The notes beneath the pieces were generated by a model that saw only the letters and a program-made list of their open reading frames with translations, was not told the DNA's origin and made no database searches. 64,000 nucleotides of DNA from Piromyces finnis finn (taxonomy: Eukaryota > Fungi > Neocallimastigomycota), in NCBI GenBank assembly GCA_002104945.1, contig MCFH01000039.1:462827-526826 (forward strand), given 5' to 3'. The number at the start of each line of letters is the position of its first letter. The first letter of the stretch is position 1. This document shows, in pieces, positions 20,641 to 60,645 of this stretch. Both the position numbers and the translations under genes were made by a program.

Positions 20641-20652
20641 CACTTCGCACCA
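20641..20652 (-). promoter_or_regulatory. Primer-binding site TGGTGCGAAGTG (tRNA 3'-CCA type, possibly tRNA-Phe)
   Basis: Starts with TGG 3 nt from the LTR. Its complement ends TTCGCACCA, which I recall as the 3' end of yeast tRNA-Phe. tRNA identity not verified. Confidence 0.7.
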
Positions 20653-20655
20653 ATT

Positions 20656-23539: not shown

Positions 23540-25959
23540 TGGTAAATCAAAATACAACAAAAAAAAGAGATTAATGAAGTGAGTTTATCCTGTACAATAA
23601 TTGGGTTGGCAGGCTCTTAATCTATATAATAGAATATAAACGTTCGAGGTACACTCAAGTACATTACCCTGTAATAGACAAGCTGGCTTGACAAATAAGT
23701 ATATACTATCTTTTATGTTTTGATTTACTACTGGAAAACTATATGAAGTACCTTTATACTTATTTTAATAAATTATTTAAATAAATTATTTTTCTAATGA
23801 AACATTTTTTCTAATAAAACAAAATTAAATTTTTATTTTAGACAAAATTTTAAATAGTTATAATATTTTAGAAGATTATATTGGCTCCCTTAGCGTGGCT
23901 AGTTAAATAGCTGTAAGTAATACTTCTTTGTTCAATTACTTATGATATTGGGGATAAATTCTAGTTTACTTCTATCAGCTAACAGTAAGTTAGTTATCAA
24001 GAGTTAAACCTCGAACTATCCTTTTATAAATATCTCTTTTATATTAACCATCGAATTTAATTGCGTAATTAAAGAAGAGCTACGAGGGACTTACTAATAT
24101 AATTTTTGACAAACTATACATTTGATGGTTTAACACTATATAGTTTGGCTAATATTATTTTACAATTTAAATTTTTATTTTTGTTTGATTATAAAAAGTT
24201 TTCTTATTTTTTTATTATATTTTACATTGGTTTTTCCAAATGTTACTATTGAATAATGGATGGATTCAACAATATCTTTGAAAATGCATCTTTGAAGGAT
24301 GGCTTCGCGTGAGATAGATGATTTCTCAAAGGATTTTTAGCTAAAATGGAACTTGTCTTCTTGCTTTACCCAGTCAGATATTAAGCTGATCGAACAAAGA
24401 TTCTTTATATTATTTCAAGATTATTTGGTAAACCCTATGAACTGGGCCGCTTCTCTAATTGAAAAAGGGGATCCATGTTTAGGAAATTATGACGCTTTTA
24501 TAAACCGTATTAAAGCATTCTATGGATACAATGACTCCGTTTATGTTGCTAACTAAATGTTAAAAAAATTAAGCAACAACTTTGTGGCGTTAGAGGATAT
24601 ATATTGGAGTTCAACAAGTATGCCGATGAATCTGACTGGAATGAACAAGCCAAGATGGATATCTTTATAGCCGGACTCAATCAACAAGTAGCCATAAAAA
24701 TTTTAGAAATATATCAATGACCAAAAGATCCCTTTTCATTACAAACTGTAGCCTCAAGAATAGATTCAAGGATATCCATTAGGTACAAATTCATCAATAA
24801 TAATACAATAAAAATCAATATTACAAAAATGAGTGAACGAAGAATTTGACAAAATCAGCAAATAATTATCACGGACCTCTCTCAAAAGAAGAAAAAGAAA
24901 GAAGAAAGAAAAATAATATATGCTTATACTGTGGATCACCAAACCATACCAAAAAGGGATAACAGTTCACAACAACAACATTTATGAATATCATTAATAA
25001 CAGTAAAAGACAACATTCCAATTAATTATTTAGTTTTAGTATGGGACGCGAATCTATATTTCCAATTTTAATCGACTCAGGCTCTGAACTCAATTTGATA
25101 GATGAAGATTTTTGTAAGACATACGATATCCCTTATTTCCAAGATGAAGATTTACCTAAAATTCAAGGTTTTGAGGGTAAACAGTCTATTATAGGTGTCA
25201 CTCCAAGTCTCAATTTAAGGTACAAGGATCACTTCTTTACAGTTAGATTTTATGTCAATAATCTATCTTTATATCAGTGTATTTTCGGAACAGAATTGTT
25301 ACGACTACATAATTCAAACATTGAATTTACCAACAAAACTCTTTTTTTAATTCCAATTATTATTTATCACATTGTATATCTGTACCAATTTCAAATATTT
25401 ATCAAAATGGGAATACTTCTTCTTCTGAACATAATTCTGCTTTTATTATTTTCTCACACTCCAATTCCAATTCCGATTCTTCAGAATTCTCTTCTTTTCC
25501 CATCGCCTCTATCATATCTCAGCTTCAATTAAATACAAATGAAAAAATGATCAACAATAATGGTACTACTCAATCTAATGAACTTAATCTTAAAACCTTT
25601 GATCAAATTAAACCCAAGTCTAATATTTCATCTTCTCGTTTTAATAATTTAGTTATCAAGCCTTTTACTTTATATTATAATAAATATCACTCTCAACTTC
25701 ACCTGAAACCTCTACCATCGTCGATAATTTTCCACATTCCATCTTAACTGTTAATAGCGAAAATCCATCTCCTGAAATAATTACACTTACCAAAAAGATC
25801 TAAGAATTTAAAGATGTTTTCAGTGAAGCTTCTGTAGATAAGCTTCATCCACACAGGCCATACGATTATCATTAATATAATAGAAAATGTAAAATTATTC
25901 TATGGTCCTATCTATCAGCTTACCGAAAAAGAATCGAAAGTACTCAAAGCAAAGAGTAT

Positions 25960-26488
25960 TGTAAAGTCGACGAAGAAAGAATAAATTAGGATATCTATTC
26001 TATTACAATAACATCAAAATTAAAAAATAAAAATAAAATTGTTATTAAAAATATAATGGAAATTTATTAATAACAATTACATCGATAAAATGATGAAAAA
26101 TATCTTCTATTTATATTTTTCCTAAATGCATTTATATTATAACTATTTATTTCTTATATATTATTATTTAAAATCTACACTAAAATCTTAATTATTAATA
26201 AAATATTTAAACTATAACTATTTTAGTAAAATTAAATAGGCAATTCAAATTAAGTACCATTCAATTTGAATATGTGCTCATGTGTTATTGATATATTAAT
26301 CATTTAATAATTATATACTATATATATATTTCTATTACAAAACAATACTAAAATTAAGGGTTTGGATTGAGAATTTTAATTTATTTTGTTTTAAACTTTA
26401 ATAATTAATAAATAAATTATGCCTCATTTTTCTTTTTCTGTAATATAATGTGTGTAACTTAAACAATAATATTTATGGCTTAAGTTAC
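25960..26488 (+). mobile_element. Solo LTR, B subtype; 3' end interrupted by a second copy
   Basis: Starts TGTAAAGTCGAC, colinear with 46087-46702, and stops after GGCTTAAGTTAC. Confidence 0.85.
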
Positions 26489-26962
26489 TGTAATGGTGAC
26501 ACAGAAAGAATAGATTAGGATATCTATTCTATTACAATAACACTAAATTTAAAATAAAAATAAAAATTGTTTTATTAGAAATATCTTTTATTATAATAGA
26601 AATTTTATTGATAACAATTACATTGATAAAATGATGAAAAATATCTTCTATTTATATTTTTCCTAAATACATTTATATTATATTATAACTATTTATTTAA
26701 AATATATTATTATTTAAAACCTACACTAAAATCTTAATTATTAATAAAATATTTAAACTATAATTATTTTAGTAAAATTAAATATGCAATTAAAATCAAA
26801 TACTATTTAATTTGAATATGTGCCCATGTATTATTTATATATTAATCATTTATTATTTATATATTATTCATCTTTTTCTATCAAAAACAATACTAAAACT
26901 AAGAAATTAAATTGAGAAATTTAATTTATTTGTAAAACATTAAAAATAAATTACTGATTCTT
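26489..26962 (+). mobile_element. Solo LTR, B subtype, 3'-truncated and joined to RNase H coding sequence
   Basis: Starts TGTAATGGTGACAC and is colinear with 46087. Runs directly into the TDSSNFDIGA codons. Confidence 0.82.
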
Positions 26963-33563: not shown

Positions 33564-34967
33564 ATACTAATAGAGGATGGAAGACTAGATATGGTAGTTT
33601 ATTCATAACAACGAAATTCTTACAGATGAAACTCCTTGCTGAGCCTGAATTAATTAACAGCTTAATTTTTAATGTTTTGTTGTTCATCTTGATGATGAAA
33701 GTGGAATTCATTGTATTTGTTCTATTTGGCGTGTAATTGACTGAAAGTATTTCATTGTTTTTCTTGCTTTATTGAATATTTTTAATCTTTTTGTTTGTAA
33801 AAGTTTAAAACAGATTATAAAATTTTTACAATAAAATAATAAACACAAAATAAATAAAAAGAAACAAGAAAATAAATTATTTAAAATATCTCTTTTATTA
33901 ATTTTATTTAGTTAATAACTAAATAATAGTCAATTACAATTATATCGTTTTAATTAAGAAATTTCTACATGTATTTATATTTTTTGTAAATTATATTTTA
34001 ATATACTATTCTATTTAATTACACATATATTCAATATAAAATAAACAAAACTAAACTAAAACTAATTAAATACACTTTTGATTCAATTTGAGTAAACTGC
34101 AAATTGAATACAGTCCATGTATTACCTATATATTAATTAAATATTAATAATACTATTTATTATATATTTGCTATTAAAAAATGCTAATTTAAAACTACGC
34201 TAAAGTTATTAAACTAATTTTAATTAAATAAAAACTTTTTAAGATTTAATTTGAATATTTATCCAAATTTCATTTTTAACCTTGATATTTTAAAATTAAT
34301 TATTATTTAATTATTCCATAAAATTTATACAATAAATTTTATAAATAATTTTTCATTAAAATATCAAAATTATTATTAAATAATTTTAAGATATATTTTA
34401 TATCTTTACATTGTTGTTATCTATCTTGTAAAAGTTGTATAATTTTCTTCCGAAGGACTTCTTATCTTTATGGTCACTCTTGGGCTTCTTGTTATGAAAA
34501 TTATTAATATTATCATTAATAAGACATTTTTTGTCGAGATTAATAATAACATTAGTAGCTTCGAATACCGTCTTGGGTCTGTCAACTTCGTCGAATTCCC
34601 TTTGCACTTCTTCGTGAAGGCCTCTCCTGATAAGATCAACGAATACTTCGTCAGGCCATCCGATTCTCTTAGAGAGTCTTCTGAACTCGATTGTATAATT
34701 GGCTGCCTTCCCTAAATGATGCTGTTTAAGGTTTAAAAGTTGTTCTAAGAATATACTTTTGTTCCTTTATATCCCCAAAGTTATCCAGCAATAAGTTTTT
34801 GAATTCTTCATAACTTAGTACTAATAGTACTATCAGCAATGAGAAATAACCCCCATTTTCTTGATGCACCTTGAAGTTTATTAGCAACAAAAGAACATTT
34901 AGATTCGTCTTTTTGGAATGTGTTAGAATGTTCCTTGAAGAACATTTCACATTATCCAAGGACTTCA
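33564..34967 (-). pseudogene. Gypsy gag-protease remnant (chromovirus-type gag), split by solo LTR 33796-34410
   Basis: FVANKLQGASRKW, YTIEFRRLSKRIGWPDE and LLINSGSAR read in shifting frames. Confidence 0.75.
33796..34410 (+). mobile_element. Solo LTR, A subtype (615 bp)
   Basis: TGTAAAAG...TATCTTTACA with TSD TTGTT. Confidence 0.93.
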
Positions 34968-34969
34968 CT

Positions 34970-35392
34970 AATAAATTAAAATTCTCAATTCAAACCCCTA
35001 GTTTTAGTATTGTTTTGTAAGAGAAATAGATATATAGTATATAAATATTAAATGATTAATATATCAATAATACATGGGCACATATTCAAATTGAATAGTA
35101 CTTAATTTGAATTGCCAATTGTATTTTACTAAAAATAGTTATAGTTTTTATTAATAATTATAATTTTAGTGTAGATTTTAAATAATAATATAAGAAATAA
35201 GTAGTTATAATATAAATGTATTTAGGAAAAATATAAAGAGAAGATATTTTTCATCATTTTATCGATGCAATTGTTATTAACAATTTTATTACAATAGATT
35301 AATAAAAAACTATTTTTTATAAAATATATTTTATATTGTTATTGTAATAGATTAGATATCCTAATCTATTCGGTTTAGTGTCTGTCTTTACA
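34970..35392 (-). mobile_element. Solo LTR, B subtype, 3'-truncated
   Basis: Reverse complement starts TGTAAAGACAGACAC and is colinear with 46087. Confidence 0.85.
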
Positions 35393-36480: not shown

Positions 36481-36484
36481 TGTT

Positions 36485-37041
36485 TGTAAAGATATCAAAC
36501 GCCACATATTGATATCTTTAATGTAACTTAAGCCATAAACATTATTGTTTAAGTTACACAAATTATATTACAGAAAAAGAAAATAGGTCATAATTTATTT
36601 TTAATGTTTAACAAATAAATAAATTTTTCAATTCAAACTTTTAGTTTTAGTATTGTTTTGTAATAGAAATATATAGTAAATAATTATTAAATGATTAATA
36701 TATCAATAATACATCATCACATATTCAAATTGAATAGTATTTAATTTGAATTGCCAATTGTATTTTACTAAAAATAGTTATAGTTTAAATATTTATTAAT
36801 AATTAAAATTTTAGTGTGGATTTTAAATAATAATATAAGAAGTAAATAATTATAATATAATATAAATGTATTTAGGAAAAATATAAATAGAAGATATTTT
36901 TCATCATTTTATCGATGTAATTGTTATTAATAAATTTCTATTAAAGATATTATTAAAACAATTTTTATTTTTATTTTTTAATTATGGTGTTATTGTAATA
37001 GAATAGATAACCTAATCTATTCTTTCTGTGTCGACTTTACA
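36485..37041 (-). mobile_element. Solo LTR, B subtype (557 bp), flanks do not match
   Basis: Both termini present (TGTAAAGTCGAC...GATATCTTTACA on minus). Flanks ATGTT / ATAAC are not a TSD. Confidence 0.88.
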
Positions 37042-37310
37042 ATAACAATTACCCAACGAAATCCAAGAATACGTTAGGGTATCTACCGCCGAAGGACAAG
37101 AAATTGAATAAAGTAAACTATTAATATCTTCAAGGACTTAGTAATACAAAACTTATTCGACACTGCTTTACAGAACGCGTTTGAATAACATTTGTATTAG
37201 AATAGATTGTATTAGTGTAATTAAAAAAAAATAAAAAAAATTTAAGATTACTTACTTGAAACAGTAGTAAGAAACAATTTTTATTTTATATTATATTATA
37301 TTTTGAATTG

Positions 37311-39566: not shown

Positions 39567-42500
39567 ATGTTCCCAAATTCCATCAGGAAATTTCTGTTTT
39601 TTCTACTGATTCTACTGATTGCAATTACTCTTCTTAGGAGTATCGGAATTATTCAGAGAGGTAGGACTGCAAGGCCTTTTTCTTTTAGGATGGGAGGAAT
39701 CATCAGATTTATCGGCCATGATATCATCCATGATATCATTTTCATCTTCCAAGTTTGGATCAGGATCATCCATAGATTTATTGTTGTTTGGAATATATGA
39801 ATGTGAGTCACGTGCAATATCAGGAGAATCAGAAATTTTTGAATTTAAATTTATGTAATCATTAATATCCATAGTGTCTGAGTTGGTAGAATTATCCTGT
39901 GTAACATTAGAATTTATGCTAGAATTATGACGTGGATTATTTGATTTATCATCCAATAGAATGTTATCATTTTTATTTTGAATTTTTGAGTCAATTTTTG
40001 AAAAATCTTTATTAATAAAAATTTTTTCACGATGATGATCAGAAATTGAATTTTCAGTAGTATTTTCACCATCATTTTTGGTATTAGAAATATTTTCAGT
40101 GGTGAAGTCATCAGTTGAAGAATTATTATAATATTCATGATTTTCAATAATTTTATTTTTGTTTTTGTCAGCAAGAGTTTTACCAGGACAAACGTTATCG
40201 GAACCAGGAGTTTCAGGATATTGGTATTTATTATTTTATTGATATTATTTGAAATTTTACAATTTTTCTTTTCGAAATTGCAATTGTCATTTGCAATTTC
40301 TTCTAAAACTTTTAAAATGTCATTAGTAAATTTATTTTTGTCAAATTTCGAATTTGAATTATTATTTTTGTTGAGTATCTACATTCATGTATAAAGAATT
40401 TGTTTTTGAATTGTTCATTAAATTACTTTTTGAACTTTCCTTAGTTTGAGAAATAATATTAGTCTTTTTATTACTTTCTTCCTCTTTCCTTTCAGTTTTT
40501 TCGTTATAAGTTAAATTTTTATCAACCAGGTCCTCGTCCATAGTACTTATGTTGTCTTCATTTACCATTTTTTCTTCTACTTCTTCTTCATTTACTTTTT
40601 CTTCATTTACTTTTTCTTCTATTACTTCTTCTCCATTGTTTTTAAAGTGGAAATTCACCTTCTTCTTGGAAGTAGTCCTTTCTGTATTATTGTTCTCATT
40701 ATTTATATTTGAATTTGTATCTGTAGTGTTGTTGTTCTTGCTGTCAACAACTTTCTCTTTTACACCTTCTGTGTTATTGTTGTTCTTCGATGAATCTGAG
40801 GAGACCTTATTGTCGTAATTGTTGATATTATATGAATCGTTGAAAGAGAAATAAGGATCGTTTATATTTTTATTTTTATAAGTGTATTGTGCTGGCTTAT
40901 CTTCACAGCATTCTATTTCTCTAGAATAGTGAATTTTAAGTTTATCACCACATATTTCCATGACGATATATGAGTGATATATTTCACTGAACCCAAGAAA
41001 TATCACTTCCTTTGAGTTTGGTGCAAATTTTGACTTTTTAAGGGAATAGTCCTTAAAGTAACATATACATCCAAATACCTTTAGGTATTTTAGATCGGCT
41101 TCCTCGTTGGTAAATACTTCGTCAGGGATTAAATTATTATTTCCTTGGTGTGGTATTTTGTTGTAAATATAACAAGAGTATTTTACAGCAAAACTCCAAA
41201 AGTCTTCAGATAAATTAGCCCAATATAAAAGTGTTTTAGTATAATTTTGAATAGCCTGGTTTATTCTTTCTGCTTTTCCATTTAATTCATGTACGTAAGG
41301 AGGTGAGTTTATCTTAGATATACCGTTTTCCTTACAATACTTTATAACTTTACTACTGTTATATTCTTTTGCACCATCTGTCTTGAATGTTTTGACTTTA
41401 TATTGGTCAAAAGTGTTATTGACATTCTTTAGGAATTCAATAATGATATCAGGTGCTTCAGATCTTGACTTGAGAGTATAAATCCAAAGTTTTCTTGAAT
41501 ATTCATCCAGTATAGTCATAAAATATTTCTTATTGTTTATGGATGAATTAAACGGGCCTGAAATATCGGAGTGAATAGTCTCTAGAGCTCTTCCGGCTTT
41601 AGGTACGGTTTTGTTGTGGAGAGACTTCTTCATTTTTGATATTTTGCAGTCTAGGCAAGGCATTACTTTAATTTTATGTTGATTTAGATATTTCTTCAGA
41701 TCGTTCTGGTAGAAATGGCCTAATCTCTTATGCCATATATCTAAATCATCTTCAAAATTTGCAATAAATGGTTCATTTTTCTTTTTATTAATGTTTATGA
41801 GTTTAATTTTGAATTGGTTTAATTCATTTGAGTATGTTTGCATTATATTTTTATTTTCAGAGTCCTTGAAAATAAGTCTGACTTTCCCATCGTCAGTAAT
41901 ATCAATAATGCTTCTTAAACCAACTTTAGCAGGTCCTACACCACTAATTAAATTCTTGCTAACTTTATCTGAGTACAAAACTTTTTCTAACTTGTAAGTT
42001 TTGTCTTTTATCTTGAACTCATATGAACCATAACCACTAAATTCACAGGTAGTTCCATTTGCACATCTAAGTTGGATGTGTTCTTCTGTGAAGTTTTCTA
42101 AGATGTCCTTATCATTAACTATATGTTCGGCGGCACCAGTATCGTAGAACCATTCGTCGTACTTATTTTCTCCATACACATAATCTATATTCTTTACATT
42201 AGGAGAGTCTTCTTTTGTAGCTTCATCTTTTTCAATAAGGTAGATACTTCTTTCCGTTAAAGGCCTAATATCTTCAAATTCTACGTTAATACCGTAACTT
42301 TCGTTGTCGTCATAGTTTTCGACGAAATCTACTTCTTGTTCGAATTTCTTTTGTTGTTTTTTCTTGTGAACTTGCATCCCTTATTGTGAATTTCTTTTGG
42401 ATTTGTTTTGGTTATAGGCCTTATTATTACTGTTTCTTCTTTGTTCTCTTTCCATTTTGGCCTTTTGATTATATTCACACATTTCGGTGGAATGACCATG

Positions 42501-43684
42501 TTCACAGCAGATATGACAGTAGGTACGGTGGCTTCTATTTATATTTCTTCTGTTACCGTAGCTTTTATTCTTTGATTTGTTTTCTCTACTAACAAAATCA
42601 ACATCCATTGGATCATCAACTTCGTCATCTTCATCTTGGTCGTTGTTGATTCAATCCTCGAAGTAGGATTTGGCATTGATGTAACTTTTGACCTTCTCAT
42701 AGAATTGATCAGAAGTTTCGTCTAAAGTTATATTCAATTGGTTCTTGACACTTCGTGGAAGGGAATTGTACATAAATTTCAATTTTTCCCTTTCACTTAA
42801 GGACATTCTTTGTTCAGACATCTCAAGGAAGATTTCCTTGATTTTATCAATGGTTTTACTGACTTTGCTTACATCTTCAGTATGTAATTTTCTTAACTTC
42901 TTTAGCCAGTATTCAATGTTTGCATTAGCGTTACCGTATTTTGTATTCAACTTCTTGAATACTTGATAACAGCTAGTACTATGACCAATCTCTCTGAGAA
43001 TCTTCTCATCCACATTTTGAATGATCATAAGGTGTGCATCAGCATTAAGACTTTCAGCTGCTGATACTATCTCGGCCTTATAAATTGGAGAGTTTGCCAA
43101 TTTATTGGCGGCTACAACATTAATGTTATTAATGTTGCTGTTTGGGTTTGCGTCCTCCCACATAGCTTTAGTGAAGGTTTTGTAAACGGATGCGAGGAAG
43201 TTATTAGTACGGTAGTTGGCAATAATTTTTACAATAGCCATAGTTTAAACATCTTTGAGATTAAAATCTATCACAAAGCTGTCGTCTTTGATGGTTCCAA
43301 CAATGTCATAATCAAGATAGCTAATTAGACCCTGTCTAGAAGCTGACTTGATTAAAAGACTCCAAGTGTCAAAGTTGGATTTTCCATGAAGACGTTGATC
43401 ATTGGCTAAAATTAATTGCTGGGACATACTAAAATTTTAAACACATAAAATTTTTGCTTTAAATTTTTCTTAAGAAATTTTTATTATTGATTAGAGTTTG
43501 AGACTCTTAATCTGTGAAATAAATTTAATTAATAAATAATTTTATTAATAAGGTTAACAAAGAGAAAAAGTTACATTGTAAATATTACAGTTATATAATG
43601 AGATATAAGGTCATGTGAACATATAAAATGAAATAAAATAAATAAAAAAAGCTTTCTCTACAACACGTAGACATTACGTTTACA
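39567..43684 (-). mobile_element. Ty1/copia retrotransposon, copy 2 (5' LTR from 43513, PBS, gag-PR-INT; RT/RNase H missing)
   Basis: Gag starts at 43427. 671-aa PR-INT ORF (YDTGA, WHKRLGH, HSDISGP, TDGAKEY, ELNGKAER). Far end of the LTR (~43684) is tentative. Confidence 0.92.
43499..43512 (-). promoter_or_regulatory. PBS GATTAAGAGTCTCA, complementary to the tRNA-Lys(CUU) anticodon arm
   Basis: Abuts the LTR end (CA). Its complement TGAGACTCTTAATC contains the CTT anticodon loop of eukaryotic tRNA-Lys. Confidence 0.75.
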
Positions 43685-44071: not shown

Positions 44072-44837
44072 AATCTAGCTAAAACCAAATCTTGAGAGAA
44101 TATTTTAGTAATTATAATATTAAACAAAAAAAAAAAAATATGTCACAAGAAAAGATGGCCATAATCCTTACAGGTCCATCAAATTATTTTGAATGGATGG
44201 ACTACATATGGGCCGAATTTTCAAAAGAAAAAATTATAAATTATCTTTATACAAATGGTATCAAAGATATTGATACCAAGAACCTTAAAGAGGGTGAAGA
44301 TGAAAAATTGGCTCAAAATGGAACAGTCAAATTTATCATCATTCACTCTATCTCTAGGAAAATTCATTCTGAGGTGGTAGGCATGGAGTCTGTAACAACG
44401 CGAGAGACTCAGGTTAACACAATACTAATTAACTATTTTTTATATTAATAGTATATTTTATTAATAATTTGATTATTTAATATTATTAATACAAATTAAC
44501 CTTAATACTAATTCTAAAAACTAAATTTACATGAATTTTATAAATTATTTATATCTACTATTTATAAATATTCTTATTTAATAATTATGAATAAACATTA
44601 TTCATATTGATTGGTAACTTCAATTATTTAAATAAAAAGAAGAAATAAAAATAGACAAATATTATGGATTAAATATAGCGATTGCTATATTTAATCCATA
44701 ATATTGAGAACCCGGAGTCGAATACATGACAAGTAGGTCAGCGTCCAACAACCTGACGGCGAAGCCAGCTTGGAGAACCCCGAAATACAATTTTGGTGAA
44801 AAGGTACAAAACCTTTATACGTTACAATGCCCTCCTT

Positions 44838-47800
44838 CTAATGTCGGATTCCAGACGACATTGAATGCGGTTTGTCTGGAAACTTTTTGTGGAAAGCTTT
44901 CAGTAATTCGGGGGCATGTATGTCTTCTGCGTTTTCCCATGAACGATCTTCAGCAGGATATCCTTTCCAATCAACAAGATACTGAAGTGCTCTGTTGTTA
45001 ATTCTAGAATCCAATATTTCGTTTACTTCATACTCTAGTTCATCGTTAACTAAAATGGGAGGCGGCTTCTGAATGTCTCGGTTTTCAAAGGTATTCTCAA
45101 TATAGGGCTCGAGATTAGATATATGGAAAATGGGGTGTCTTCGGTCTCGTTTGGATAATTTTAACTTGAAATTTTGATTTTCCAAGCATTCAATAATTTC
45201 ATATGGTCCCGATTTCCTAGGATCTAATTTCTTCACATTTGTTTTTCCTTTGGGATAGAGCAACCATACTTTGTCGCCTACATTTAAACTGGGAGGCTCT
45301 TGTCTTTTCTTATCAGCATATTCTTTAAACTTTTCTTGGGCTTCTTTCATATTTTCCTTTAGTTTTTCAAGTGTCGTACCAATGTCACATACAACTTTTT
45401 CAGCTTCAGGAACTAGGGACGTTATTGGAAGATCAATTAAGAATTCTGGATCATACTTTAAGTTGGCCTTGAAAGGTGACATTTTAATGGATTCCTGAAT
45501 AGCATTGTTATAGGCAAATTCTGAGAGTGAAATATACGAACTCCAGTCAGAATGTTTACCATTAGTGAAACATCTGAGATACTGTTCAATTATACTATTA
45601 AGCCTTTCCGTTTGCCCATCAGTCTGTTGGTGATGAGCAGTTGAAAGTTTGGATTCACAGTACAGTAGCTTACAAAAATGTTGGAAGAATTTGGAATTGA
45701 ATTGTCTACCGCGATCTGATATAATTTCCTTTGGAATACCATGTAGTCTGAATACATTATCCAAGATAAGTTGTGCAGTTTCTTCAGCTGAGGGAAGCTT
45801 TCTAAGTGGAATGAAATGACCCATCTTCGATAATCTATCCACCACTGTTAGGATAGCAGAGTAATTGTTCGATTTTGGTAGATCTGTAATGAAATCAAGA
45901 GATATTGAAGACCATTGTTTTTCGGGTATTGAGAGTGGTTGAAGAAATCCATATGGTTTATGATTGCTGTTTTTGTTTCTATTACACGTATCACATGAAT
46001 TTACAAATCTGCGTACATCCCCCCTCAAGCTCTTCCACCAAAAGTTTCTACTAATAAGTTCGAGAGTTTTCCTAATACCGAAATGTTGTACAGTTGACAC
46101 TAAAAGAATAGATTAGGATATCTATTCTATTACAATAACACTAAATTTAAAATAAAAATAAAAATTATTTTATTAAAAAATATCTTTTATTATAATAGAA
46201 ATTTTATTAATAACAATTACATCGATAAAATGATGAAAAATATCTTCTATTTATATTTTTCCTAAATACATTTATATTATATTATAACTATTTATTTCTT
46301 ATATATTATTATTTAAAATCTACACTAAAATCTTAATTATTAATAAATATTTAAACTATAACTATTTTTAGTAAAATACAATTGGCAATTCAAATTAAGT
46401 ACTATTCAATTTGAATATATGCCCATGTATTCTTGATATATTAATCATTTAATAATTATATACTATATATCTATTTCTATTACAAAACAATACTAAAACT
46501 AGGGATTTAAATTGAGAATTTTAATTTACTTGTTAAACATTAAAAATAAATTAATAATTTATTTTGTTTTAAACTTTAATTATTAATAAATAAATTATAT
46601 CTCATTTTCTTTTTCTTAATATAATTTGTGTAACTTAAACAATAATACTTATGGCTTAAGTTACATTAAAGATATCAAGTTGAGGCGTTTGATATCTTTA
46701 CAAATGTCCGGAAGAAGGGGAATTATGATGGGATTGAAGAATATCAACACGAAGGACTTCGGGAATGTAAATCTTATAGTTGTAAAGAAGAATACCATCC
46801 TTGAAAGTGAAAGGAGAATTGGGGAGATTAAGTCTTCTGGAGTTGTTTGTAGAATTGAAGTAAGGATCTGAAGGTAGGGCTGAACGAATCTTTTCTAATA
46901 GAGAGCTATCACTTAGAGAAATAACGGAGGAAATGCTAGTGAAATTAGAAGTGTTAAGAATTGAACCTGAATTAGAAACTTTATGTTCATAATCAGGTCT
47001 ACGAGACAAGCAATCAGCTCTATTCTTCGAACCAGGTTTGTATTTAATAACAAAATCAAAACGAGAGAAGAAGATACTCCAGCGGATATGACGTTGGGAA
47101 AGATGATCTGGTTTACGCTCAAAAAGAAGATTACGATGATCGGAGAAGACAGTGATTTGGTGATTGGCACCTTCAAGATGGTGCCTCCAGGTTTGAAAGG
47201 CTTCTTTGATAGCAAGGAGTTCCTTGTCGTAAATTGGGTAATTACATTCGGCGTTGGTTAAAGCTCTCGAGAAGAAAGAAACAGGGTGAAGAGAACCATC
47301 AAATTCTTGAAGAAGGACACTACCGATAGCGAAGTTACTGGAGTCGGATTCAATAATGAAAGGTTTGTTCGGATCGGCATGGCGGAGGAGACTGGCGGAA
47401 AGAAAAGCATTTTTTAAATTATTGAAAGCAGAGATGGTAGAAGAGTCCATAATGAAAGGAACATTTTTCTTTAATAATCGAGTCAAGGGCACAGCGATTT
47501 TTGAAAAATTTTTTATAAAGCGCCTATAGTAATTACAGAGACCCATGAATTGTTGGATATGTTTTGTATTTTGGGGAAGAGGCCAATTAAGAATGGCGTC
47601 TACTTTATTCTTTTTCATTGATATACCAGAACCAGAAAGATGGTGACCAACAAAATCAATTTCAGGGACATCGAATTCGCATTTTTCGAGTTTAACATAG
47701 AGGTTATTCTTGAGAAGACGTTCGAGAATTAAGCGAACATGCTTATGATGTTCCTCTAATGTATTGGAAAAAATGAGAATATCATCAATGTAGGCGAAGG

Positions 47801-49105
47801 CAAAGTCGTCGAGGAAATCACTTAAAATATCGTTGATAAAATGCTGGAAGGTAGCCGGGGCATTTTTAAGACCAAACGGCATGACTAAATACTCAAAATG
47901 ACCAAATCTAGTGTTGAAAGCCGTTTTATATTCATCACCTTCCTTAATTCGAACAAGGTTGTATGCGGAACGAAGGTCGAGCTTAGTGAAGAATTTAGCT
48001 CCACTGACTTTTTCAAGAAGATCATTGATTAGTGGAAGAGGATAGGAGTTCCAAATAGTGATATCGTTGAGTTTTCTGTAGTCAATGCACATCCGAAGCG
48101 AATTATCTTTTTTTCGAACGAATAAGACAGGGGCGCCGGCTGGGGAGATAGACTTCCGAATGAAGTTCTTTTCTAAGTTTTCTTTAATATAATCCTTAAG
48201 TGTCTTTGTTTCCTCCACGGTGAGAGAATAAATTGGGCCGTAAGGAAGAGAAGAGTCGGGTTTTAAATCGATTCTACAGTCGTAAGGTCTATGCAGGGGA
48301 AGTTCGTTTGCTGCTTTTTCAGAAAAGACGTCCTTAAAGTCAATGTAAAAATCCGGAATAGAGGGTGTTTTTGAAGGTGAATCTATAGAGGGACAAGTAA
48401 TATAAATTGCAAATTTTTGAGAATATGACGTTGGAGAACAGTGAGAAGTCTAGAATCAGGTTTACTTACCGGAGAGGAAGCAGGGATGGAGGAATCAATA
48501 GAAGGTGAAGAGGGAGTCGAAGAGATTGAGTGAAGATGAATATCCGAATTATTTGTTGAAACACAAGAGTCATTACACTGAGGGTTTTCGCAATTAGGTT
48601 TAAAATATGCTTTATTAGTTTCAAATTTAGATACATCTTTTTTAAAATACAATTTTTTACAATCAAAATCTACGACTGCCCTATTTGAATTGAGCCAAGG
48701 GGTACCAATAATTGGAGGTAGAGAATCATCATCTGTGATAATGAATTGAATAGAAAATGATTCATCTTTAAATATAATCCTAAGAGGTTTAGTCATTCCC
48801 AAAATATTAGAAGTTTTCCCACCACAGTCAATGATTCCAGATATTTTTGAAACCGATACTGGAATACTATATTTCTCAATAAAAAATTTGGAGATAGTGT
48901 TTTCAATAGCACCTGAATCAACCAAGATTGAGATATCGCATGGGTTATTATTAATCATAATGGTGAACGGGAAAATAAGGTATTTATCTAAGGGAATGAA
49001 TGGATTATAAGATTTTGGATGGTGTGTATTATTGGTAGAAGGCTTAGCTTCAAAGGGGTTTGTACTAGAGTAAGATTTAGGCTCAGAATCTATTCTAGAA
49101 GTTAG
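44838..49105 (-). pseudogene. pol: Chromovirus Pol (PR-RT-RH-INT-chromodomain), with one indel near 48450 and a solo-LTR insertion at 46087-46702
   Basis: ILVDSGA, AYIDD, SDSSNFAIG, SLDFITDLP, SDRGRQF, GQTERLN, GPY and chromodomain motifs. Confidence 0.92.
46087..46702 (+). mobile_element. Solo LTR, B subtype (616 bp), inserted in the integrase zinc-finger region
   Basis: TGTACAG...GATATCTTTACA with TSD AATGT. Removal restores SGHFGIRKT. Confidence 0.95.
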
Positions 49106-49935
49106 TTTTTTGGAACTTTAGGACAGGAAGTGACCAAATGATCCTTAGCACCACAATACATACACAGACCTTGATCACGACGTTTTTGTTTTTCTTCAGC
49201 AGATAAAGGACCACGTCTTTTACCATCAGATTGAGTGGAACGGGTAAAAGGATTTTGATCCTCATTTCTCATCTTTCGCACAAATGGATTATAAAGAGAA
49301 GCACCACGGTAATTTCTGGAAATATTATGTTTCTTAAGAAAGCTTGAGTCGATTATCATAGCTCTATGAAACGCAGCAAGAAGGGTTGGTATATCCTCAC
49401 CACGCATTAATAACTCGGCTTTGACCTCATCATGCAATCCATCAATAAATTTTGAGACAAGGGCCGGTTGATTCCATCCAAGATGGATTGAGGCTTGTTC
49501 AAAATCTTTGATGTATTGAGATACTTCACCTATACGTTCTTGTTTCAATGCCATAATAATTTGGTTGGCATTGAATACAATGTCAAGATTACCAAATACT
49601 CTTCTAAGTAAGGCAACAAAGCTAGGATAACTGTTCATAACTGGATTTCTTTCTTGGATCAAGTGAGCTACGAAGAGTTTGGCATCCCCTTTCATATAGG
49701 AAAACATAAAAGCTGTCTTATGGGCGTCCGAGCGGAATAGAATGCTTCTTAATTGAAAGATTAATTCACAATGTTGAATAAATCCTTCAAGATCCACACT
49801 TTTTCCTGAGAATTTGCTTGGATTTCCTATCGGTAGCACATAGTCCAGCATAAGAGGGTCCACAGGAGGTACTTGGCTTTGTTGAGAGGAAGAAGCTGAG
49901 GCGGTAGTGAAAATGTTGAAAGGGTTATAAGACAT
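49102..49935 (-). CDS. gag: Chromovirus Gag (277 aa), CCHC knuckle
   Basis: Intact ORF with CMYCGAKDHLVTSC. Ends in A AAA AAC TAA. Confidence 0.9.
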   Translation of the reverse strand: MSYNPFNIFTTASASSSQQSQVPPVDPLMLDYVLPIGNPSKFSGKSVDLEGFIQHCELIFQLRSILFRSDAHKTAFMFSYMKGDAKLFVAHLIQERNPVMNSYPSFVALLRRVFGNLDIVFNANQIIMALKQERIGEVSQYIKDFEQASIHLGWNQPALVSKFIDGLHDEVKAELLMRGEDIPTLLAAFHRAMIIDSSFLKKHNISRNYRGASLYNPFVRKMRNEDQNPFTRSTQSDGKRRGPLSAEEKQKRRDQGLCMYCGAKDHLVTSCPKVPKN

Positions 49936-51592
49936 ATTTAAAATGTTTTATTAGAAAATGGTTTTATTAATTTTATAAAGGGTTAAGTTATTATTGTGTT
50001 AAGGTAAGTCTTTTTTTTTTTTTAGAGAATTAGTATTGTAACAACGCGAGAGACTCAGGTTAACACAATACTAATTAACTATTTTTTGTATTAATAGTAT
50101 ATTTTATTAATAATTTGATTATTTAATATTATTAATACAAATTAACCTTAATACTAATTCTAAAAACTAAATTTACATGAATTTTATAAATTATTTATAT
50201 TTACTATTTATAAATATTCTTATTTAATAATTATGAATAAACATTATTCATATTGATTGGTAACTTCAATTATTTAAATAAAAAGAAGAAATAAAAATAG
50301 ACAAATATTATGGATTAAATATAGCGATTGCTATATTTAATCCATAATATTGAGAACCCGGAGTCGAATACATGACAAGTAAATCAGCGTCCAACAACCT
50401 GACGGCGAAGCCAGCTTGGAGAACCCCGAAATACAATTTTGGTGAAAAGGTACAAAACCTTTATACGTTACAGAGTCCGCGTTTTTAATGCTCAAGAAAA
50501 TTCAAAGAAATTATGGAGGAGGAGAAAATGACACTACCTATTGGATGATGAAATTGAATTCATTAAAAACCAGTAATGAAAAGGAAATAACCAACGTTTT
50601 AGAAGAAATGTCCAATATCTTTGACACGTTGGAAAAGACTGACTGCAAATTAAGTAACACGGAAAAATTAAAATATCTATATAATGCTCTCCCAGGAGAA
50701 TATATGAAAAAATACATTCTGAAGGACACAACAAAATATGAAGAATTGAACAAAGAAATCCAAGAAGACATCAAAAACCGCGCCTATGTGTTAGACTGGA
50801 CTGTAGATAATAGAAGGGATGATCCAATGGAAATTGACTTTGTAAATAGAGGATCAAATAGTAAGAAGCATTATACAAAGGACAAAATGGACCAACATAA
50901 AAACAAAAAATATTGTGCCATTTGTGAGAAAAATAGACACACTACAAATGAATGTTGGTTTAATGGTAGAACAAATAAAAACAAAAAACAAATCCCACGC
51001 AAGGATAATTCCAATAAAAATAGAAGGTATTATTCAGCTCAAAAAGAAAAGTTTAAAGGAAAGTCCACCAACTATGTTGGATATGTTCAAGATCCAAACG
51101 ATTATTATAACTCTAATTTGGATTTTCAAGATATAAAAACTATGTTTTTTGAAGATAATAATACCATAGGAGATAAAAATAACAATATTAATGATAATGT
51201 AAACTTAAACAAAAAATTATATAAAGATAAGAAATATAAAAACTACATAAAAAATGTGTTCAATTTGTGTTATAAGGATTTTCGTGTTAATAACGTATTA
51301 AATTTCAAAAAGTCATCATGGTTGTATGACTCAGGTGCAGGAGAACACCTTACTAGTAATAAAAATTTACTTATTACTTTTAAAAAAAAAATAATATTGA
51401 GGTGTGCTAATAATACTTCCGTTGTATTTGAAGGATACGGAGAATTTCATTTTTATATAAACAGTCATAAAATAGTTTTTAAAAGAGTCTTATACTCAAA
51501 GGAAGTATCAAGAAATATCATAAGTGGTGTTGAACTTGCAAAAGTGAATATAAAAGCTATTACAGATACAGATAAAGATAACAGAGTAAGAC

Positions 51593-54880: not shown

Positions 54881-57800
54881 TTATTTCCAGCATGTACCAA
54901 ATTCAGATTGGCATCCATCTTCAACAGCACAATATTCAGATGACTTACCACACCAACCATATTTACTACAACAGTATCCTTCCATACATTTACCATAGTC
55001 TTTACCACATCTCCATGAATCATCTTCACTTGTCTTCTTTTTATCTTCTTCACTTGGTTTCTTTTTATCTTCAGTTGTAATTATAACACTTTCTTCAGTT
55101 TTTTCTTTTTCAACATTTACTGTAACGGAACTCTCAGTTTTATTATTAAGTATATTGGTTCTTCCGTTACATATACCAAATTCAGATTGACATCCTTCTT
55201 CAACAGCACAATATTCAGAAGACTTACCACACCAACCATATTTACTACAACAATATCCTTCCATACATTTACCATAGCCTTTACCGCATCTCCATGGATT
55301 TTCTCTATTTATAGAGTTTTCTTCAACATCACTATCTTCATTATCACCTTCTGGAATTTCATTTATTTCTTCATCACTGTCTTCATTATCACCTTCTGGA
55401 ATTTCATTTATTTCTTCATCACTATTTTCATCAACTCCAGAAATACCAACATCTTCATTAACTGTAGTAGTTGGTTTAACAATAGTAGTAACAGTAGTAA
55501 CAGTAACTGGTTTAGTGATAATAGTTTTAATAGTAACTGGTCGGGTAATAGTAGAGGTAATAATAACTCGTTTGGTAATAGTAGAGGTAATAGTTTTTTC
55601 TTCAAATACAGTAGTAATTGGTTTAATAGTAACAGTAGTAATTGTAGTTGGTTCAATAGTAGAAGTAGTAATAGTAGTTGATTCAATAGTAGAAGTAATA
55701 ATTGTAGTTGGTTTAGTAATAGTAGCTTCCTCAGTTATAGTAGTTTTTGGCTTAGTAGTGGTGGTGGTAATAGTAGTGTTTGGCTTAGTAGTGGTGGTGG
55801 TAACAGTAGTGTTTGGCTTAGTAGTGGTGGTGGTAACAGTAGTTGTTGTAGTTGTAGTTGCAGTTGTTGCATTATTTTCAACATATTTAATGGTAATCTT
55901 ATCACAGACTGGTTCTTTTTCAAACGTTAATGATATGGTGTATTGGCATTTGTTTTTATCAGACATTTTAATATCATAACTTTCGATAGTATTACCGGAT
56001 TCACTTGAAACTTCAATATTTTCGTTATTTAAAGCAAATTCCTCTTTTTCACAATTTTCATCTGATAATGTAACTAGAGTAATTAATTTATTACCTTCAA
56101 CTTTAGTATTGTTTGAATCTACGTTTCCTCCTTCAAATTCTACTTCTGTTTTACAAGTAGTAGGGGTTGTAGCGGTAGTTGTAGTGGTGGTGGTGGTGGT
56201 AACAGTAGTTGTTGTAGCTGTAGTTGCAGTTGTTGCATTATTTTCAACATATTTAATGGTAATCTTATCACAGACTGGTTCTTTTTCAAACGTTAATGAT
56301 ATGGTGTATTGGCATTTGTTTTTATCAGACATTTTAATATCATAACTTTCGATAGTATTACCGGATTCACTTGAAACTTCAATATTTTCGTTATTTAAAG
56401 CCAATCCCTCTTTTTCACAATTTTCATCTGATAATGTAACTAGAGTAATTAATTTGTTACCTTCAACTTTAGTATTGTTTATATCTACGTTTCTTCCTTC
56501 AAATTCTACTTCTGTTTCACAAGTAGTAGGGGTTGCAGCGGTAGTTGTAGTGGTGGTGGTGGTGGTAACAGTAGTTGTTGTAGTTGTAGTTGTAGTTGTT
56601 GCATTATTTTCAACATATTTAATGGTAATCTTATCACAGACTGGTTCTTTTTCAAATGTTAATGATATGGTGTATTGGCATTTGTTTTTATCAGACATTT
56701 TAATATCATAACTTTCGATAATATTACCGGATTCACTTGAAACTTCAATATTTTCTTTATTTAAAGCAAATTCCTCTTTTTCACAATTTTCATCTGATAA
56801 TGTAACTAGAGTAATTAATTCGTTACCTTCAACTTTAGTATTGTTTATATCTACGTTTCTTCCTTCAAATTCTACTTCTGTTTCACAAGTAGTAGGGGTT
56901 GCAGCGGTAGTTGTAGTGGTGGTGGTGGTGGTAACAGTAGTTGTTGTAGTTGTAGTTGTAGTTGTTGCATTATTTTCAACATATTTAATGGTAATCTTAT
57001 CACAGACTGGTTCTTTTTCAAATGTTAATGATATGGTGTATTGGCATTTGTTTTTATCAGACATTTCAATATCATAACTTTCGATAGTATTACCGGATTC
57101 ACTTGAAACCATGATATCATCCTTATTTAAGATACCATTTTCACAGTATTCCTCCTTTGGGAGGGTAACAATACTAGTTAAGTCATTACCTTTAACAGTA
57201 ACTTCATTTGGAATTACTTCACCGAAATTTATATATTCTACTTCATTTTCACACTTTTCTTCAACACGTCTAACGGTAATCTTATCACAGACTGGTTCTT
57301 TTTCAAATGTTAATGATATGGTGTATTGGCATTTGTTTTTATCAGACATTTCAATATCATAACTTTCGATAGTATTACCGGATTCACTTGAAACCATGAT
57401 ATCATCCTTATTTAAGATACCATTTTCACAGTATTCCTCCTTTGGGAGGGTAACAATACTAGTTAAGTCATTACCTTTAACAGTAACTTCATTTGGAATT
57501 ACTTCACCGAAATTTATATATTCTACTTCATTTTCACACTTTTCTTCAACACGTCTAACGGTAATCTTATCACAGACTGGTTCTTTTTCAAATGTTAATG
57601 ATATGGTGTATTGGCATTTGTTTTTATCAGACATTTCAATATCATAACTTTCGATAGTATTACCGGATTCACTTGAAACCATGATATCATCCTTATTTAA
57701 GATACCATTTTCACAGTATTCCTCCTTTGGGAGGGTAACAATACTAGTTAAGTCATTACCTTTAACAGTAACTTCATTTGGAATTACTTCACCGAAATTT

Positions 57801-60645
57801 ATATATTCTACTTCATTTTCACACTTTTCTTCAACACGTCTAACGGTAATCTTATCACAGACTGGTTCTTTTTCAAATGTTAATGATATGGTGTATTGGC
57901 ATTTGTTTTTATCAGACATTTCAATATCATAACTTTCGATAGTATTACCGGATTCACTTGAAACCATGATATCATCCTTATTTAAGATACCATTTTCACA
58001 GTATTCCTCCTTTGGGAGGGTAACAATACTAGTTAAGTCATTACCTTTAACAGTAACTTCATTTGGAATTACTTCACCGAAATTTATATATTCTACTTCA
58101 TTTTCACACTTTTCTTCAACACGTCTAACGGTAATCTTATCACAGACTGGTTCTTTTTCAAATGTTAATGATATGGTGTATTGGCATTTGTTTTTATCAG
58201 ACATTTCAATATCATAACTTTCGATAGTATTACCGGATTCACTTGAAACCATGATATCATCCTTATTTAAGATACCATTTTCACAGTATTCCTCCTTTGG
58301 GAGGGTAACAATACTAGTTAAGTCATTACCTTTAACAGTAACTTCATTTGGAATTACTTCACCGAAATTTATATATTCTACTTCATTTTCACACTTTTCT
58401 TCAACACGTCTAACGGTAATCTTATCACAGACTGGTTCTTTTTCAAATGTTAATGATATGGTGTATTGGCATTTGTTTTTATCAGACATTTCAATATCAT
58501 AACTTTCGATAGTATTACCGGATTCACTTGAAACCATGATATCATCCTTATTTAAGATACCATTTTCACAGTATTCCTCCTTTGGGAGGGTAACAATACT
58601 AGTTAAGTCATTACCTTTAACAGTAACTTCATTTGGAATTACTTCACCGAAATTTATATATTCTACTTCATTTTCACACTTTTCTTCAACACGTCTAACG
58701 GTAATCTTATCACAGACTGGTTCTTTTTCAAATGTTAATGATATGGTGTATTGGCATTTGTTTTTATCAGACATTTCAATATCATAACTTTCGATAGTAT
58801 TACCGGATTCACTTGAAACCATGATATCATCCTTATTTAAGATACCATTTTCACAGTATTCCTCCTTTGGGAGGGTAACAATACTAGTTAAGTCATTACC
58901 TTTAACAGTAACTTCATTTGGAATTACTTCACCGAAATTTATATATTCTACTTCATTTTCACACTTTTCTTCAACACGTCTAACGGTAATCTTATCACAG
59001 ACTGGTTCTTTTTCAAATGTTAATGATATGGTGTATTGGCATTTGTTTTTATCAGACATTTCAATATCATAACTTTCGATAGTATTACCGGATTCACTTG
59101 AAACCATGATATCATCCTTATTTAAGATACCATTTTCACAGTATTCCTCCTTTGGGAGGGTAACAATACTAGTTAAGTCATTACCTTTAACAGTAACTTC
59201 ATTTGGAATTACTTCACCGAAATTTATATATTCTACTTCATTTTCACACTTTTCTTCAACACGTCTAACGGTAATCTTATCACAGACTGGTTCTTTTTCA
59301 AATGTTAATGATATGGTGTATTGGCATTTGTTTTTATCAGACATTTCAATATCATAACTTTCGATAGTATTACCGGATTCACTTGAAACTTCAATATTTT
59401 CGTTATTTAAAGCAAATTCCTCTTTTTCACAATTTTCATCTGATAATGTAACTAGAGTAATTAATTCGTTACCTTCAACTTTAGTATTGTTTATATCTAC
59501 GTTTCTTCCTTCAAATTCTACTTCTGTTTCACAAGTAGTAGGGGTTGCAGCGGTAGTTGTAGTGGTGGTGGTGGTGGTAACAGTAGTTGTTGTAGTTGTA
59601 GTTGTGGAGGTGGTGGTAGTACTAATTGAAGAATCAAAATTAGGTAAGCATGCTTTAAATTCGTATAAATCAACTTCTAATGCTGAATTATCGTGATGAT
59701 ACTTTTCTGCTATTACTTGACCATTATGATGACCATTGGAACCAATGATGGTGGCATTTGGTGCTAAAATTGTGCCATGTATCGTAAAACTAGTAATTTT
59801 AATTTCTTCTGCATTTGGAAAATTCCATATAATTTTATTAGCATATTTTTCTAAATTAACAATATTTCCGTCTTTAAAATTATAATTTTTACTCTTCATA
59901 TTAATAATAATTTTATCATAGTTTTCAAGATCTATATTTTTCAAAAATTGTTGATTTGTTATATCATTAAATATTGTTTCATCACCATAATTAATAACAA
60001 GTGTGTTTCCTTCAGTCTAAAAATTATTAAATACGAATATGAAAATTTAGTAAATAAATAAAAATAACTTTTATATTTATTTATTTAACTTACATATGAA
60101 CTATCTAATTTAGCTAAATTATTTGATAAATTTAGCATTTCAGTTTTAACTTCTTCAAATGGGAAAATAGTATTAATATCAGATACTTGAGTTATATTGC
60201 AACCTTGATATCCTACTCCATTTTTATAAATCTCTTGATATGCAACATTAGTCATGAAGGTGATATTGCCTTCAATAGATTTACTAACTAATGAATAATG
60301 ATCAGGAGTTTCACATGAAAGATCATTCCTATCATTACGATTGGTAAGACTTATTATACCATTTATTTTTTCCTTAGCAGCAATTGCACCTCCACCACTA
60401 TGAGCTGAACTATAAGGTGATATAAATTCATTAAATAAAATATAAGAAAATTTTGATATTCCATGTCCAAATGGATCAGTACAAACACTATCTCTTTTAA
60501 TATTTGCTCTTTTTTGATGTAATATATTATTAAAAGATACAGAATTAGTTTTTGAATCTATGGCTCTAGCCTTAATAGTAGCAGTTAAAACTTGAACTAC
60601 TACTATAAAAATTAATATTTTCAAATGATCTCTAAAAAAAATCAT
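54881..60645 (-). CDS. Secreted surface protein (~1,895 aa): signal peptide, choice-of-anchor-A-like domain, Thr linkers, tandem ~95-aa Cys-containing repeats, mucin-like region, two hevein/CBM18 chitin-binding domains; join(60094..60645, 54881..60016)
   Basis: Hydrophobic N-terminus. Phase-0 GTAAGT...TTAG intron at 60017-60093 joins the two ORFs in frame. IIWNFPNA..HGTILAPNA..NGQVIA motif. Two WRCG..G.C..GYCCSKYGWCG..EYC..GCQSEFG.C modules. Confidence 0.88.
57060..59390 (-). repeat. Eight apparently identical 285-bp coding tandem repeats, flanked by four variant units with Thr linkers
   Basis: Identical antisense ORFs recur every 285 bp from 57111 to 59106. Confidence 0.97.

What the first reader, a model, noticed from the sequence alone, without database searches (positions are those of the whole stretch)
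49985..50190. Complete Tf1-type self-priming RNA structure in the chromovirus 5' LTR/leader
Seen in sequence: there is no TGG tRNA PBS. The 11 nt after the 5' LTR (sense ATACTAATTCT, 50026-50036) are exactly complementary to sense AGAATTAGTAT inside the LTR (50151-50161), which lies ~21-27 nt downstream of a TATAAAA. U5 (GUUAAUUAGUAUUGUGUUAA-CC-UGAGUCU) also pairs over ~27 bp with the leader (AGACUUA-CC-UUAACACAAUAAUAACUUAAC). Established: S. pombe Tf1 primes with the first 11 nt of its own mRNA and needs a U5-leader duplex. Inference: tRNA-independent priming in a probable early-diverging gut fungus, with the structure intact.
Basis: partly seen in the sequence, partly recalled or inferred. 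Interest (0 to 1): 0.8.

Follow-up and report, generated by a model that had tools for sequence, protein, structure and literature searches.

The report
Self-priming retrotransposon with competing primer clamp
A fungal jumping gene and two diverged relatives lack the usual tRNA landing site and carry an exact match to it inside their own terminal repeat, so they likely start copying themselves with their own RNA, a known trick of this group, here with a predicted extra hairpin that would hide the site until a downstream arm opens it.

Summary
Observation confirmed. The 11 nt after the 5' LTR of a young Ty3/gypsy chromovirus (LTRs 432/436 identical, 5-bp target duplication) are the exact complement of an 11-mer 125 nt upstream in the LTR (10 of 20,000 shuffles). 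U5 pairs with the leader over 26 bp (0 of 2,000 shuffles). Two relatives (Gag 68-71% identical) keep primer, PBS and a 15-bp U5:leader core, with no double-sided change. Self-priming is the described hallmark of Tf1/sushi chromoviruses, so the main inference is likely right but expected. 'Complete Tf1-type' is not shown. U5 holds a second copy of the primer that folds back on the PBS in all three elements (z -7.5, -6.0, -3.9). That hairpin contains the U5-IR-like third helix and excludes the U5:leader helix. In folding models the leader arm cuts the cost of opening the PBS from 9-13 to 2-5 kcal/mol, so it likely acts as an anti-clamp. The start site is unmapped, the TATA box is not conserved in place, the host is inferred, and this copy's pol is broken. 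New variant of a known kind; interest 0.4.

The parts
50037..50472 (-). 5' LTR, 436 bp, TG...CA
   Evidence: 432 of 436 bases identical to the 3' LTR
44391..44826 (-). 3' LTR, 436 bp
50473..50477 (-). 5-bp target-site duplication GACTC (other copy 44386-44390)
   Evidence: empty-site contig joining 44387 to 50476
50182..50188 (-). TATAAAA at -27..-21 of the primer; not kept at this place in L001 or L002
50172..50180 (-). TCATGTAAA motif, invariant in 3 elements, ending 10 nt before the primer; role untested
50151..50161 (-). predicted self-primer (predicted first 11 nt of the RNA)
50085..50141 (-). predicted AU-rich hairpin in R; a hairpin of different sequence lies here in both relatives and starts at nt 12
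   Evidence: z -2.0 (6 of 200 shuffles), -3.6, -3.2
50068..50076 (-). second, 9-nt copy of the primer in U5; 5' arm of the predicted PBS-clamping hairpin
50052..50068 (-). U5 core arm with two alternative partners: the LTR end (U5-IR-like stem) or the leader arm
50026..50036 (-). primer-binding site, directly after the LTR's terminal CA, no TGG
49994..50010 (-). leader core arm, 17/17 invariant, pairs with the U5 core (15 bp around a CC/CC loop)
49982..49993 (-). outer leader arm that extends the helix to 26 bp in this element; 1/12 columns invariant
49102..49935 (-). gag (DUF4939, Retrotrans_gag, C-terminal CCHC motif)
48383..49117 (-). start of pol with protease, in the -1 frame to gag
46698..48449 (-). 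RT and RNase H; out of frame with the protease part in this copy
46081..46701 (.). 621-bp AT-rich repeated element inserted in the integrase zinc-finger region; absent from other family contigs
44838..46112 (-). integrase core, SH3_Tf2-1 and chromodomain
44830..44839 (-). polypurine tract, 3 nt before the 3' LTR

Best explanation
This is a young Ty3/gypsy chromovirus whose primer-binding site is the exact complement of an 11-mer in its own LTR, and it likely primes reverse transcription with that 11-mer, the predicted 5' end of its RNA, once a leader arm has pulled U5 away from a predicted hairpin that would otherwise cover the site. Steps: (1) inferred: transcription starts at A50161. (2) Predicted: the nascent RNA first folds a local hairpin in which the U5 copy of the primer pairs with the PBS and the LTR end. 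(3) Predicted: the leader arm 12-15 nt past the PBS captures the U5 core in a 15-26 bp helix and leaves the PBS in a loop of about 40 nt. (4) Complementarity shown, pairing inferred: nt 1-11 anneal to the PBS; the R hairpin shortens the tether. (5) By analogy with Tf1 (PMC7175516 passage): RNase H of RT cuts between nt 11 and 12 and RT extends from the LTR's last base. This copy cannot do so on its own because pol is broken; family contigs without these breaks exist.
For: Exact 11-nt match beyond chance. No TGG in 3 of 3 leaders, while the non-chromodomain gypsy in the same window has TGG 3 nt after its LTR and only 4 nt of self-complementarity. Four blocks (primer, U5 core, LTR end plus PBS, leader core) are 11/11, 16/17, 16/16 and 17/17 invariant against about half for U3 and R; primer-to-LTR-end distance is 125, 122 and 121 nt. 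The one change in the core helix is G.U to A-U. In contigs of the family no change was listed inside the PBS, and a leader change falls in the CC loop. Clamp hairpin z -7.5, -6.0, -3.9, 0 of 200 shuffles each. PBS opening cost: 3.0/4.7/2.0 kcal/mol on the full RNA, 13.0/11.5/9.0 before the arm is made, 0.3/1.0/0.7 if the U5 copy is blocked, against -10.3 for primer:PBS. A sister family (L004, L005) has a U5:leader helix with 3 of 9 pairs changed on both sides. RT groups with fungal and vertebrate chromoviruses (SH-aLRT 99), a group described as self-priming (PMC10085805, PMC6317226 passages).
Against: Only 3 elements, 2 of them from one assembly; 25 of 26 pairs never vary, which says nothing about pairing as such. 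The TATA box is not conserved in place. The free-energy model cannot represent the primer bound inside the loop, so no loop or pseudoknot penalty is included. In L002 the primer would bind weakly even without the arm (-10.3 against 9.0). One diverged contig changes primer position 6, with its PBS unseen, and two contigs change the G of the U5 copy. L002 breaks 2 pairs of the clamp and lacks a third. The sister-family covariation rests on 2 sequences (71 of 500 shuffles reach it) and on a structure read from them.
Confidence: 0.7

Rival explanations
1. Self-priming is right but static, as in the Tf1 pretzel: the primer invades next to a U5-IR-like stem at the LTR end, and the U5 primer copy or the leader arm is a remnant of an old inverted repeat with no switching role.
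For: A U5-IR-like stem ending at the terminal CA can form in all 3 elements with different 3' arms (-8.0, -9.3, -8.5 kcal/mol with the PBS free). Tf1 uses such coexisting helices (PMC10085805 passage).
Against: The conformer with the U5:leader helix is 6-12 kcal/mol more stable (-19.8, -15.0, -15.7), the leader core is 17/17 invariant while the U5-IR 3' arm is 3/10, and both use the same U5 strand.
Confidence: 0.15
2. The U5 copy is the real primer: the RNA starts near 50076, or is cut at 50068/50067 inside the hairpin, which leaves a 3' end paired in register with the first PBS base.
For: The U5 copy pairs with the PBS in the same register as the upstream 11-mer and the hairpin is the predicted minimum-energy fold.
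Against: It matches only 9 nt (7 in L002) and is 7/9 invariant, while the upstream copy lies in a 16-nt invariant block; strong-stop DNA would be only about 31 nt long and could not copy R.
Confidence: 0.05
3. A host tRNA half or another small RNA with this 3' sequence primes the element, and the LTR match is a by-product.
For: Half-tRNA priming is described for Ty1/copia lineages (PMC6317226 passage). No host tRNA set was available.
Against: That paper found half-tRNA use only in Ty1/copia; an external primer would not explain an invariant complement at a fixed distance in the LTR; Rfam shows no tRNA-like match here.
Confidence: 0.05
4. The invariant blocks are DNA or protein-binding signals (promoter, integrase end, Gag site) and the complementarity is historical.
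For: No double-sided change in this family; invariance extends to unpaired CC/CC bases and to 4-5 nt past the primer.
Against: Some primer is required and there is no tRNA site; four separate blocks are pairwise complementary; the single change keeps pairing.
Confidence: 0.05

Closest known systems
Tf1/Tf2 of Schizosaccharomyces pombe, Tj1, Tosmo1-3, Tcry1 (self-primed 'pretzel' elements; PMC10085805, PMC4600332, PMC7175516, passages read)
   Same: Chromodomain Ty3/gypsy element; PBS right after the LTR's CA; 11-nt complement inside the LTR; long U5:leader pairing; no tRNA site.
   Different: The conserved U5:leader helix starts 12-15 nt from the PBS; the U5-IR-like stem and the U5:leader helix share one strand and exclude each other; U5 carries a second primer copy able to cover the PBS; gag and pol overlap in a -1 frame. 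The original Tf1 structure papers were not available, so a similar clamp in Tf1 cannot be excluded.
Tf1/sushi group in other hosts: Tcn1 of Cryptococcus, moss and club-moss Tcn1, vertebrate sushi elements (PMC6317226, PMC2864245, passages read)
   Same: Same RT cluster by proxies; self-priming predicted from sequence alone, as here. Tcn1-clade elements are reported from the chytrid Batrachochytrium.
   Different: Probable anaerobic gut fungus host; the searches listed no paper on self-priming in that phylum.
Retroviral U5-leader and U5-IR stems and alternative leader folds (RSV, HIV-1; recalled, no call)
   Same: U5 with alternative partners that govern access to the PBS.
   Different: Those use a tRNA primer; here the occluding strand is a copy of the element's own primer.

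Membership tests
Ty3/gypsy chromovirus | PR-RT-RH-IN order with a C-terminal chromodomain | tested here: met
   RVP_2, RVT_1, RT_RNaseH, Integrase_H2C2, rve, SH3_Tf2-1, Chromo (E 3e-14)
Ty3/gypsy chromovirus | TG...CA LTRs, PPT, target-site duplication | tested here: met
Tf1/sushi group | RT groups with fungal and vertebrate chromoviruses, apart from seed-plant lineages | tested here: met
   37-row clade, SH-aLRT 99, quick tree only; anchors are source-named fish, amphibian, Rhizoctonia, Berkeleyomyces and Pecoramyces proteins; Tf1 and sushi-ichi themselves were not in the tree
Tf1/sushi group | No tRNA PBS; PBS complementary to a segment of the LTR | tested here: met
   3 of 3 elements
Tf1/sushi group | The complementary segment is the 5' end of the RNA | not testable with these tools
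   needs mapped 5' ends; only DNA contigs were available
Tf1 'pretzel' structure | U5 paired with leader sequence 3' of the PBS | tested here: met
   helix begins 12-15 nt from the PBS, not adjacent
Tf1 'pretzel' structure | Third, PBS-adjacent helix on the 5' side coexisting with the other two | tested here: not met
   the U5-IR-like stem can form, but only instead of the conserved U5:leader core (prediction only)
Tf1 'pretzel' structure | Compensatory changes or mutants showing the pairing | tested here: inconclusive
   0 double-sided, 1 one-sided change in 26 pairs over 3 sequences; 3 of 9 in a sister family of 2 sequences
Tf1 'pretzel' structure | RNase H cut between nt 11 and 12 | not testable with these tools
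   needs RNA from particles
tRNA-primed Ty3/gypsy | TGG-starting PBS within a few nt of the LTR | tested here: not met

The most novel reading that the evidence does not exclude
A self-primed retrotransposon with a built-in primer decoy: a copy of the primer in U5 clamps the PBS on the nascent RNA, keeping the capped 5' end free and uncut for translation, and the leader arm (helped by Gag's zinc knuckle in the particle) flips U5 away so that the true 5' end can bind and be cut. This would be a translation-versus-replication switch for tRNA-free priming, in a phylum where self-priming was not found in the papers searched.
Probability: 0.3. Interest if true: 0.62.

Novelty: new variant of a known kind. 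Interest (0 to 1): 0.4.

Why it matters
Self-priming has been shown by experiment in Tf1 and is assumed for the rest of the Tf1/sushi group. A conserved case in a probable anaerobic gut fungus would extend it to a deep fungal branch, which is expected rather than surprising. The added value is a design problem of self-priming: the end that carries the cap for translation must later be tied down and cut off. Mutually exclusive U5:PBS and U5:leader helices would be a simple, testable timing device. Three natural sequences with the same blocks give ready templates for probing.

Tried and rejected
No whole genome is held, so copies could not be collected and no host tRNA set checked; ARAGORN found 0 tRNA genes in the window. 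No RNA holder listed among 4 runs of 1 study; contigs cannot show a start site. Viral collection: single RT query 0 of 13 candidates confirmed; RT alignment gave 60 loci, 1 relevant (L032), the other 59 at 26-36% identity were not examined; a 16-nt LTR-end/PBS pattern gave 55 hits, 0 of 55 with any other block, taken as chance. Prokaryote genomes: Gag alignment 0 of 128; RT alignment 29 loci, of which L003-L009, L011 and L015 were examined with L032; with 15 further loci they mostly lack the LTR part where a primer would lie, so primer:PBS covariation across families could not be tested. Two-strand folding cannot represent a primer bound in a hairpin loop, so its occupancies were discarded. 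Rfam: 4 weak matches, none near a gathering score. Host identity from the adhesin-like gene: atlas hits without useful taxa or under 0.9; no homologue among shorter proteins. The careful tree did not finish; L002, L099 and L109 gave no row under my segment filter. A spliced primer, as in earlier notes on BEL/Pao, is not needed because the 11-mer is contiguous. Original Tf1 papers PMC109269 and PMC6388632 are not held.

Full report
The element. The finding lies at the 5' end of a minus-strand LTR retrotransposon. Its LTRs are 50037-50472 and 44391-44826, 432 of 436 bases identical, flanked by the 5-bp duplication GACTC, with a purine tract 3 nt before the 3' LTR. Pfam gives gag (DUF4939, Retrotrans_gag), protease, RT, RNase H, integrase, SH3_Tf2-1 and a chromodomain in gypsy order. 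It sits inside a Copia gag region, and a contig of the empty site exists. This copy is defective: RT is out of frame with protease near 48449, where most family depth shows one more base, and a 621-bp repeated element interrupts the integrase region, skipped by 3 contigs. A quick RT-RNase H tree of 47 rows places it among fungal and vertebrate chromoviruses (SH-aLRT 99), inside a 21-row subclade (98) that includes a protein named by its source as Pecoramyces ruminatium. The careful tree did not finish and Tf1 itself was not a row. With 13-36% G+C and a chitin-binding gene nearby, an anaerobic gut fungus is a fair inference, not a result.

The observation. The 11 nt after the terminal CA are the exact complement of 50161-50151. 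10 of 20,000 shuffled LTRs hold such a match, and 16 of 12,313 composition-matched window 11-mers do. The U5:leader duplex has 26 pairs and -23.7 kcal/mol; 0 of 2,000 shuffled leaders reach it. TATAAAA is at -27. As an internal control, the other gypsy element in the window (LTRs near 13624-14197 and 20652-21225, no chromodomain hit) has TGG 3 nt after its LTR and 4 nt of self-complementarity.

Relatives. A Gag alignment found 2 loci among 129 candidates in metagenomes, L001 and L002, 68% and 71% identical, both from one assembly. Both hold a whole LTR and leader. Across the three, invariant columns are primer 11/11, U5 core 16/17, LTR end 5/5, PBS 11/11, leader core 17/17, against U3 158/310, R 35/74, spacer 5/15 and outer leader arm 1/12. 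The primer lies 125, 122 and 121 nt before the LTR end. All 78 cells pair; one pair varies on one side (G.U to A-U), none on both. This is selection on four mutually complementary blocks, not proof of pairing. The TATAAAA is not kept at its place; TCATGTAAA, ending 10 nt before the primer, is. Contigs of one sample show no listed change in the PBS and a change in the unpaired CC loop; against my reading, one diverged contig changes primer position 6 (its PBS is not shown) and two change the G of the U5 copy, one of them with a foreign flank at the LTR end. In a sister family (RT 56-58% identical), L004 and L005 have a 9-bp U5:leader helix closing a 19-nt loop with the LTR end and PBS, with 3 pairs changed on both sides; with 2 sequences 71 of 500 shuffles match this. 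Their LTR middle is missing, so their primer is unknown.

U5 repeats nine bases of the primer (50076-50068). The unconstrained fold is therefore a hairpin in which U5 covers the LTR end and the PBS: z -7.5, -6.0 and -3.9 in the three elements, 0 of 200 shuffles each; 48 of 50 cells pair, both failures in L002. Its inner part is a U5-IR-like stem ending at the terminal CA. PMC10085805 (passages and supplement legends read; figure not seen) describes the Tf1 pretzel as primer:PBS plus two PBS-adjacent helices. Here the conserved U5:leader helix begins 12-15 nt after the PBS and needs the same U5 strand as the U5-IR-like stem. With the PBS held open, the leader conformer scores -19.8, -15.0, -15.7 kcal/mol and the U5-IR conformer -8.0, -9.3, -8.5. 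Opening the PBS costs 13.0, 11.5, 9.0 kcal/mol on an RNA ending before the leader arm, 3.0, 4.7, 2.0 on the full leader, and 0.3-1.2 if the U5 copy is blocked, with or without the arm; primer:PBS yields -10.3. In the model the arm's whole effect is to undo the clamp. The primer-bound state is a pseudoknot that the program cannot score, so these sums omit a loop penalty. A hairpin of unrelated sequence fills R in all three (z -2.0, -3.6, -3.2) and starts at nt 12 in both relatives, which would mark the expected cut site and shorten the tether.

Mechanism. Shown: complementarity, absence of TGG, conservation. Predicted: clamp, leader helix, R hairpin. Inferred by analogy with Tf1 (PMC7175516 passage: first 11 bases pair with the PBS, RNase H cuts between 11 and 12): start at 50161, cut and extension. 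I put self-priming at about 0.85, the leader arm acting as anti-clamp at about 0.5, and a regulated translation-versus-replication switch at 0.3.

Known art. PMC10085805 and PMC6317226 (passages) call self-priming a common feature of the Tf1/sushi group in fungi, vertebrates and non-seed plants; PMC4600332 (passages) proposes it for Tj1; PMC2864245 (passages) reports the Tcn1 clade in a chytrid; PMC3601003 (passages) notes TGTAA motifs in LTRs. Eight searches (listings only, apart from the papers named) showed no report for anaerobic gut fungi and no primer-like U5 clamp, but the primary Tf1 and sushi papers are not in the library and supplements of the other papers were not read. The RSV and HIV-1 comparisons are recalled. 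Earlier notes of this scan list 148 self-priming findings in other genomes and none like this stretch.

Verdict. Real feature, probable self-priming, known mechanism in the expected group. The departure from the described pretzel, a conserved primer decoy in U5 with an exclusive leader helix, makes it a variant worth probing. Interest 0.4.

Noticed in passing
window 50172-50180, 44526-44534, 20825-20833, 13797-13805 (all minus strand): TCATGTAAA occurs 5 times in the window, 4 of them in the LTRs of two unrelated gypsy families, on the sense strand and just after a TATAAAA-like stretch; also invariant in L001 and L002. Possible host promoter or 3'-end signal.
   Followed up: partly
window 50304-50351 and 44658-44705: Near-perfect 48-nt palindrome in U3; a hairpin with the same stem base and different loop is present in L001 and L002.
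   Followed up: no
window 46081-46701; similar copies near 25957-26959, 34964-35392, 36483-37046: AT-rich non-coding repeat of about 620 bp with very high contig depth, inserted into this element's pol; two tandem copies near 26000.
   Followed up: partly
window 13624-21225 (minus): Second complete gypsy element with identical LTRs (574-bp match), a TGG-type PBS and no chromodomain hit; long branch in the RT tree.
   Followed up: partly
L004:25-62 and L005:99-136: Sister chromovirus family with a compensating U5:leader helix; the PBS has TGG after 2 nt but only 7 shared bases, so its primer (tRNA or self) is open.
   Followed up: partly
window 50058-50059 and 50003-50004: The CC/CC internal loop of the U5:leader helix is invariant in 3 elements although unpaired; possible protein site or a break that avoids long perfect dsRNA.
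   Followed up: no
L032:95-225: A GC-rich chromovirus-like contig has a 9-nt LTR complement to the sequence starting 2 nt after its apparent LTR end, read by eye; possible self-primer in another host.
   Followed up: no
window 54881-60016 (minus): 1711-aa protein with an adhesive-type domain, long Thr-rich and 285-bp tandem repeats and chitin-binding domains.
   Followed up: partly
window 8-3384 and 39631-43009: Two 96.5% identical copies of a Copia element.
   Followed up: no
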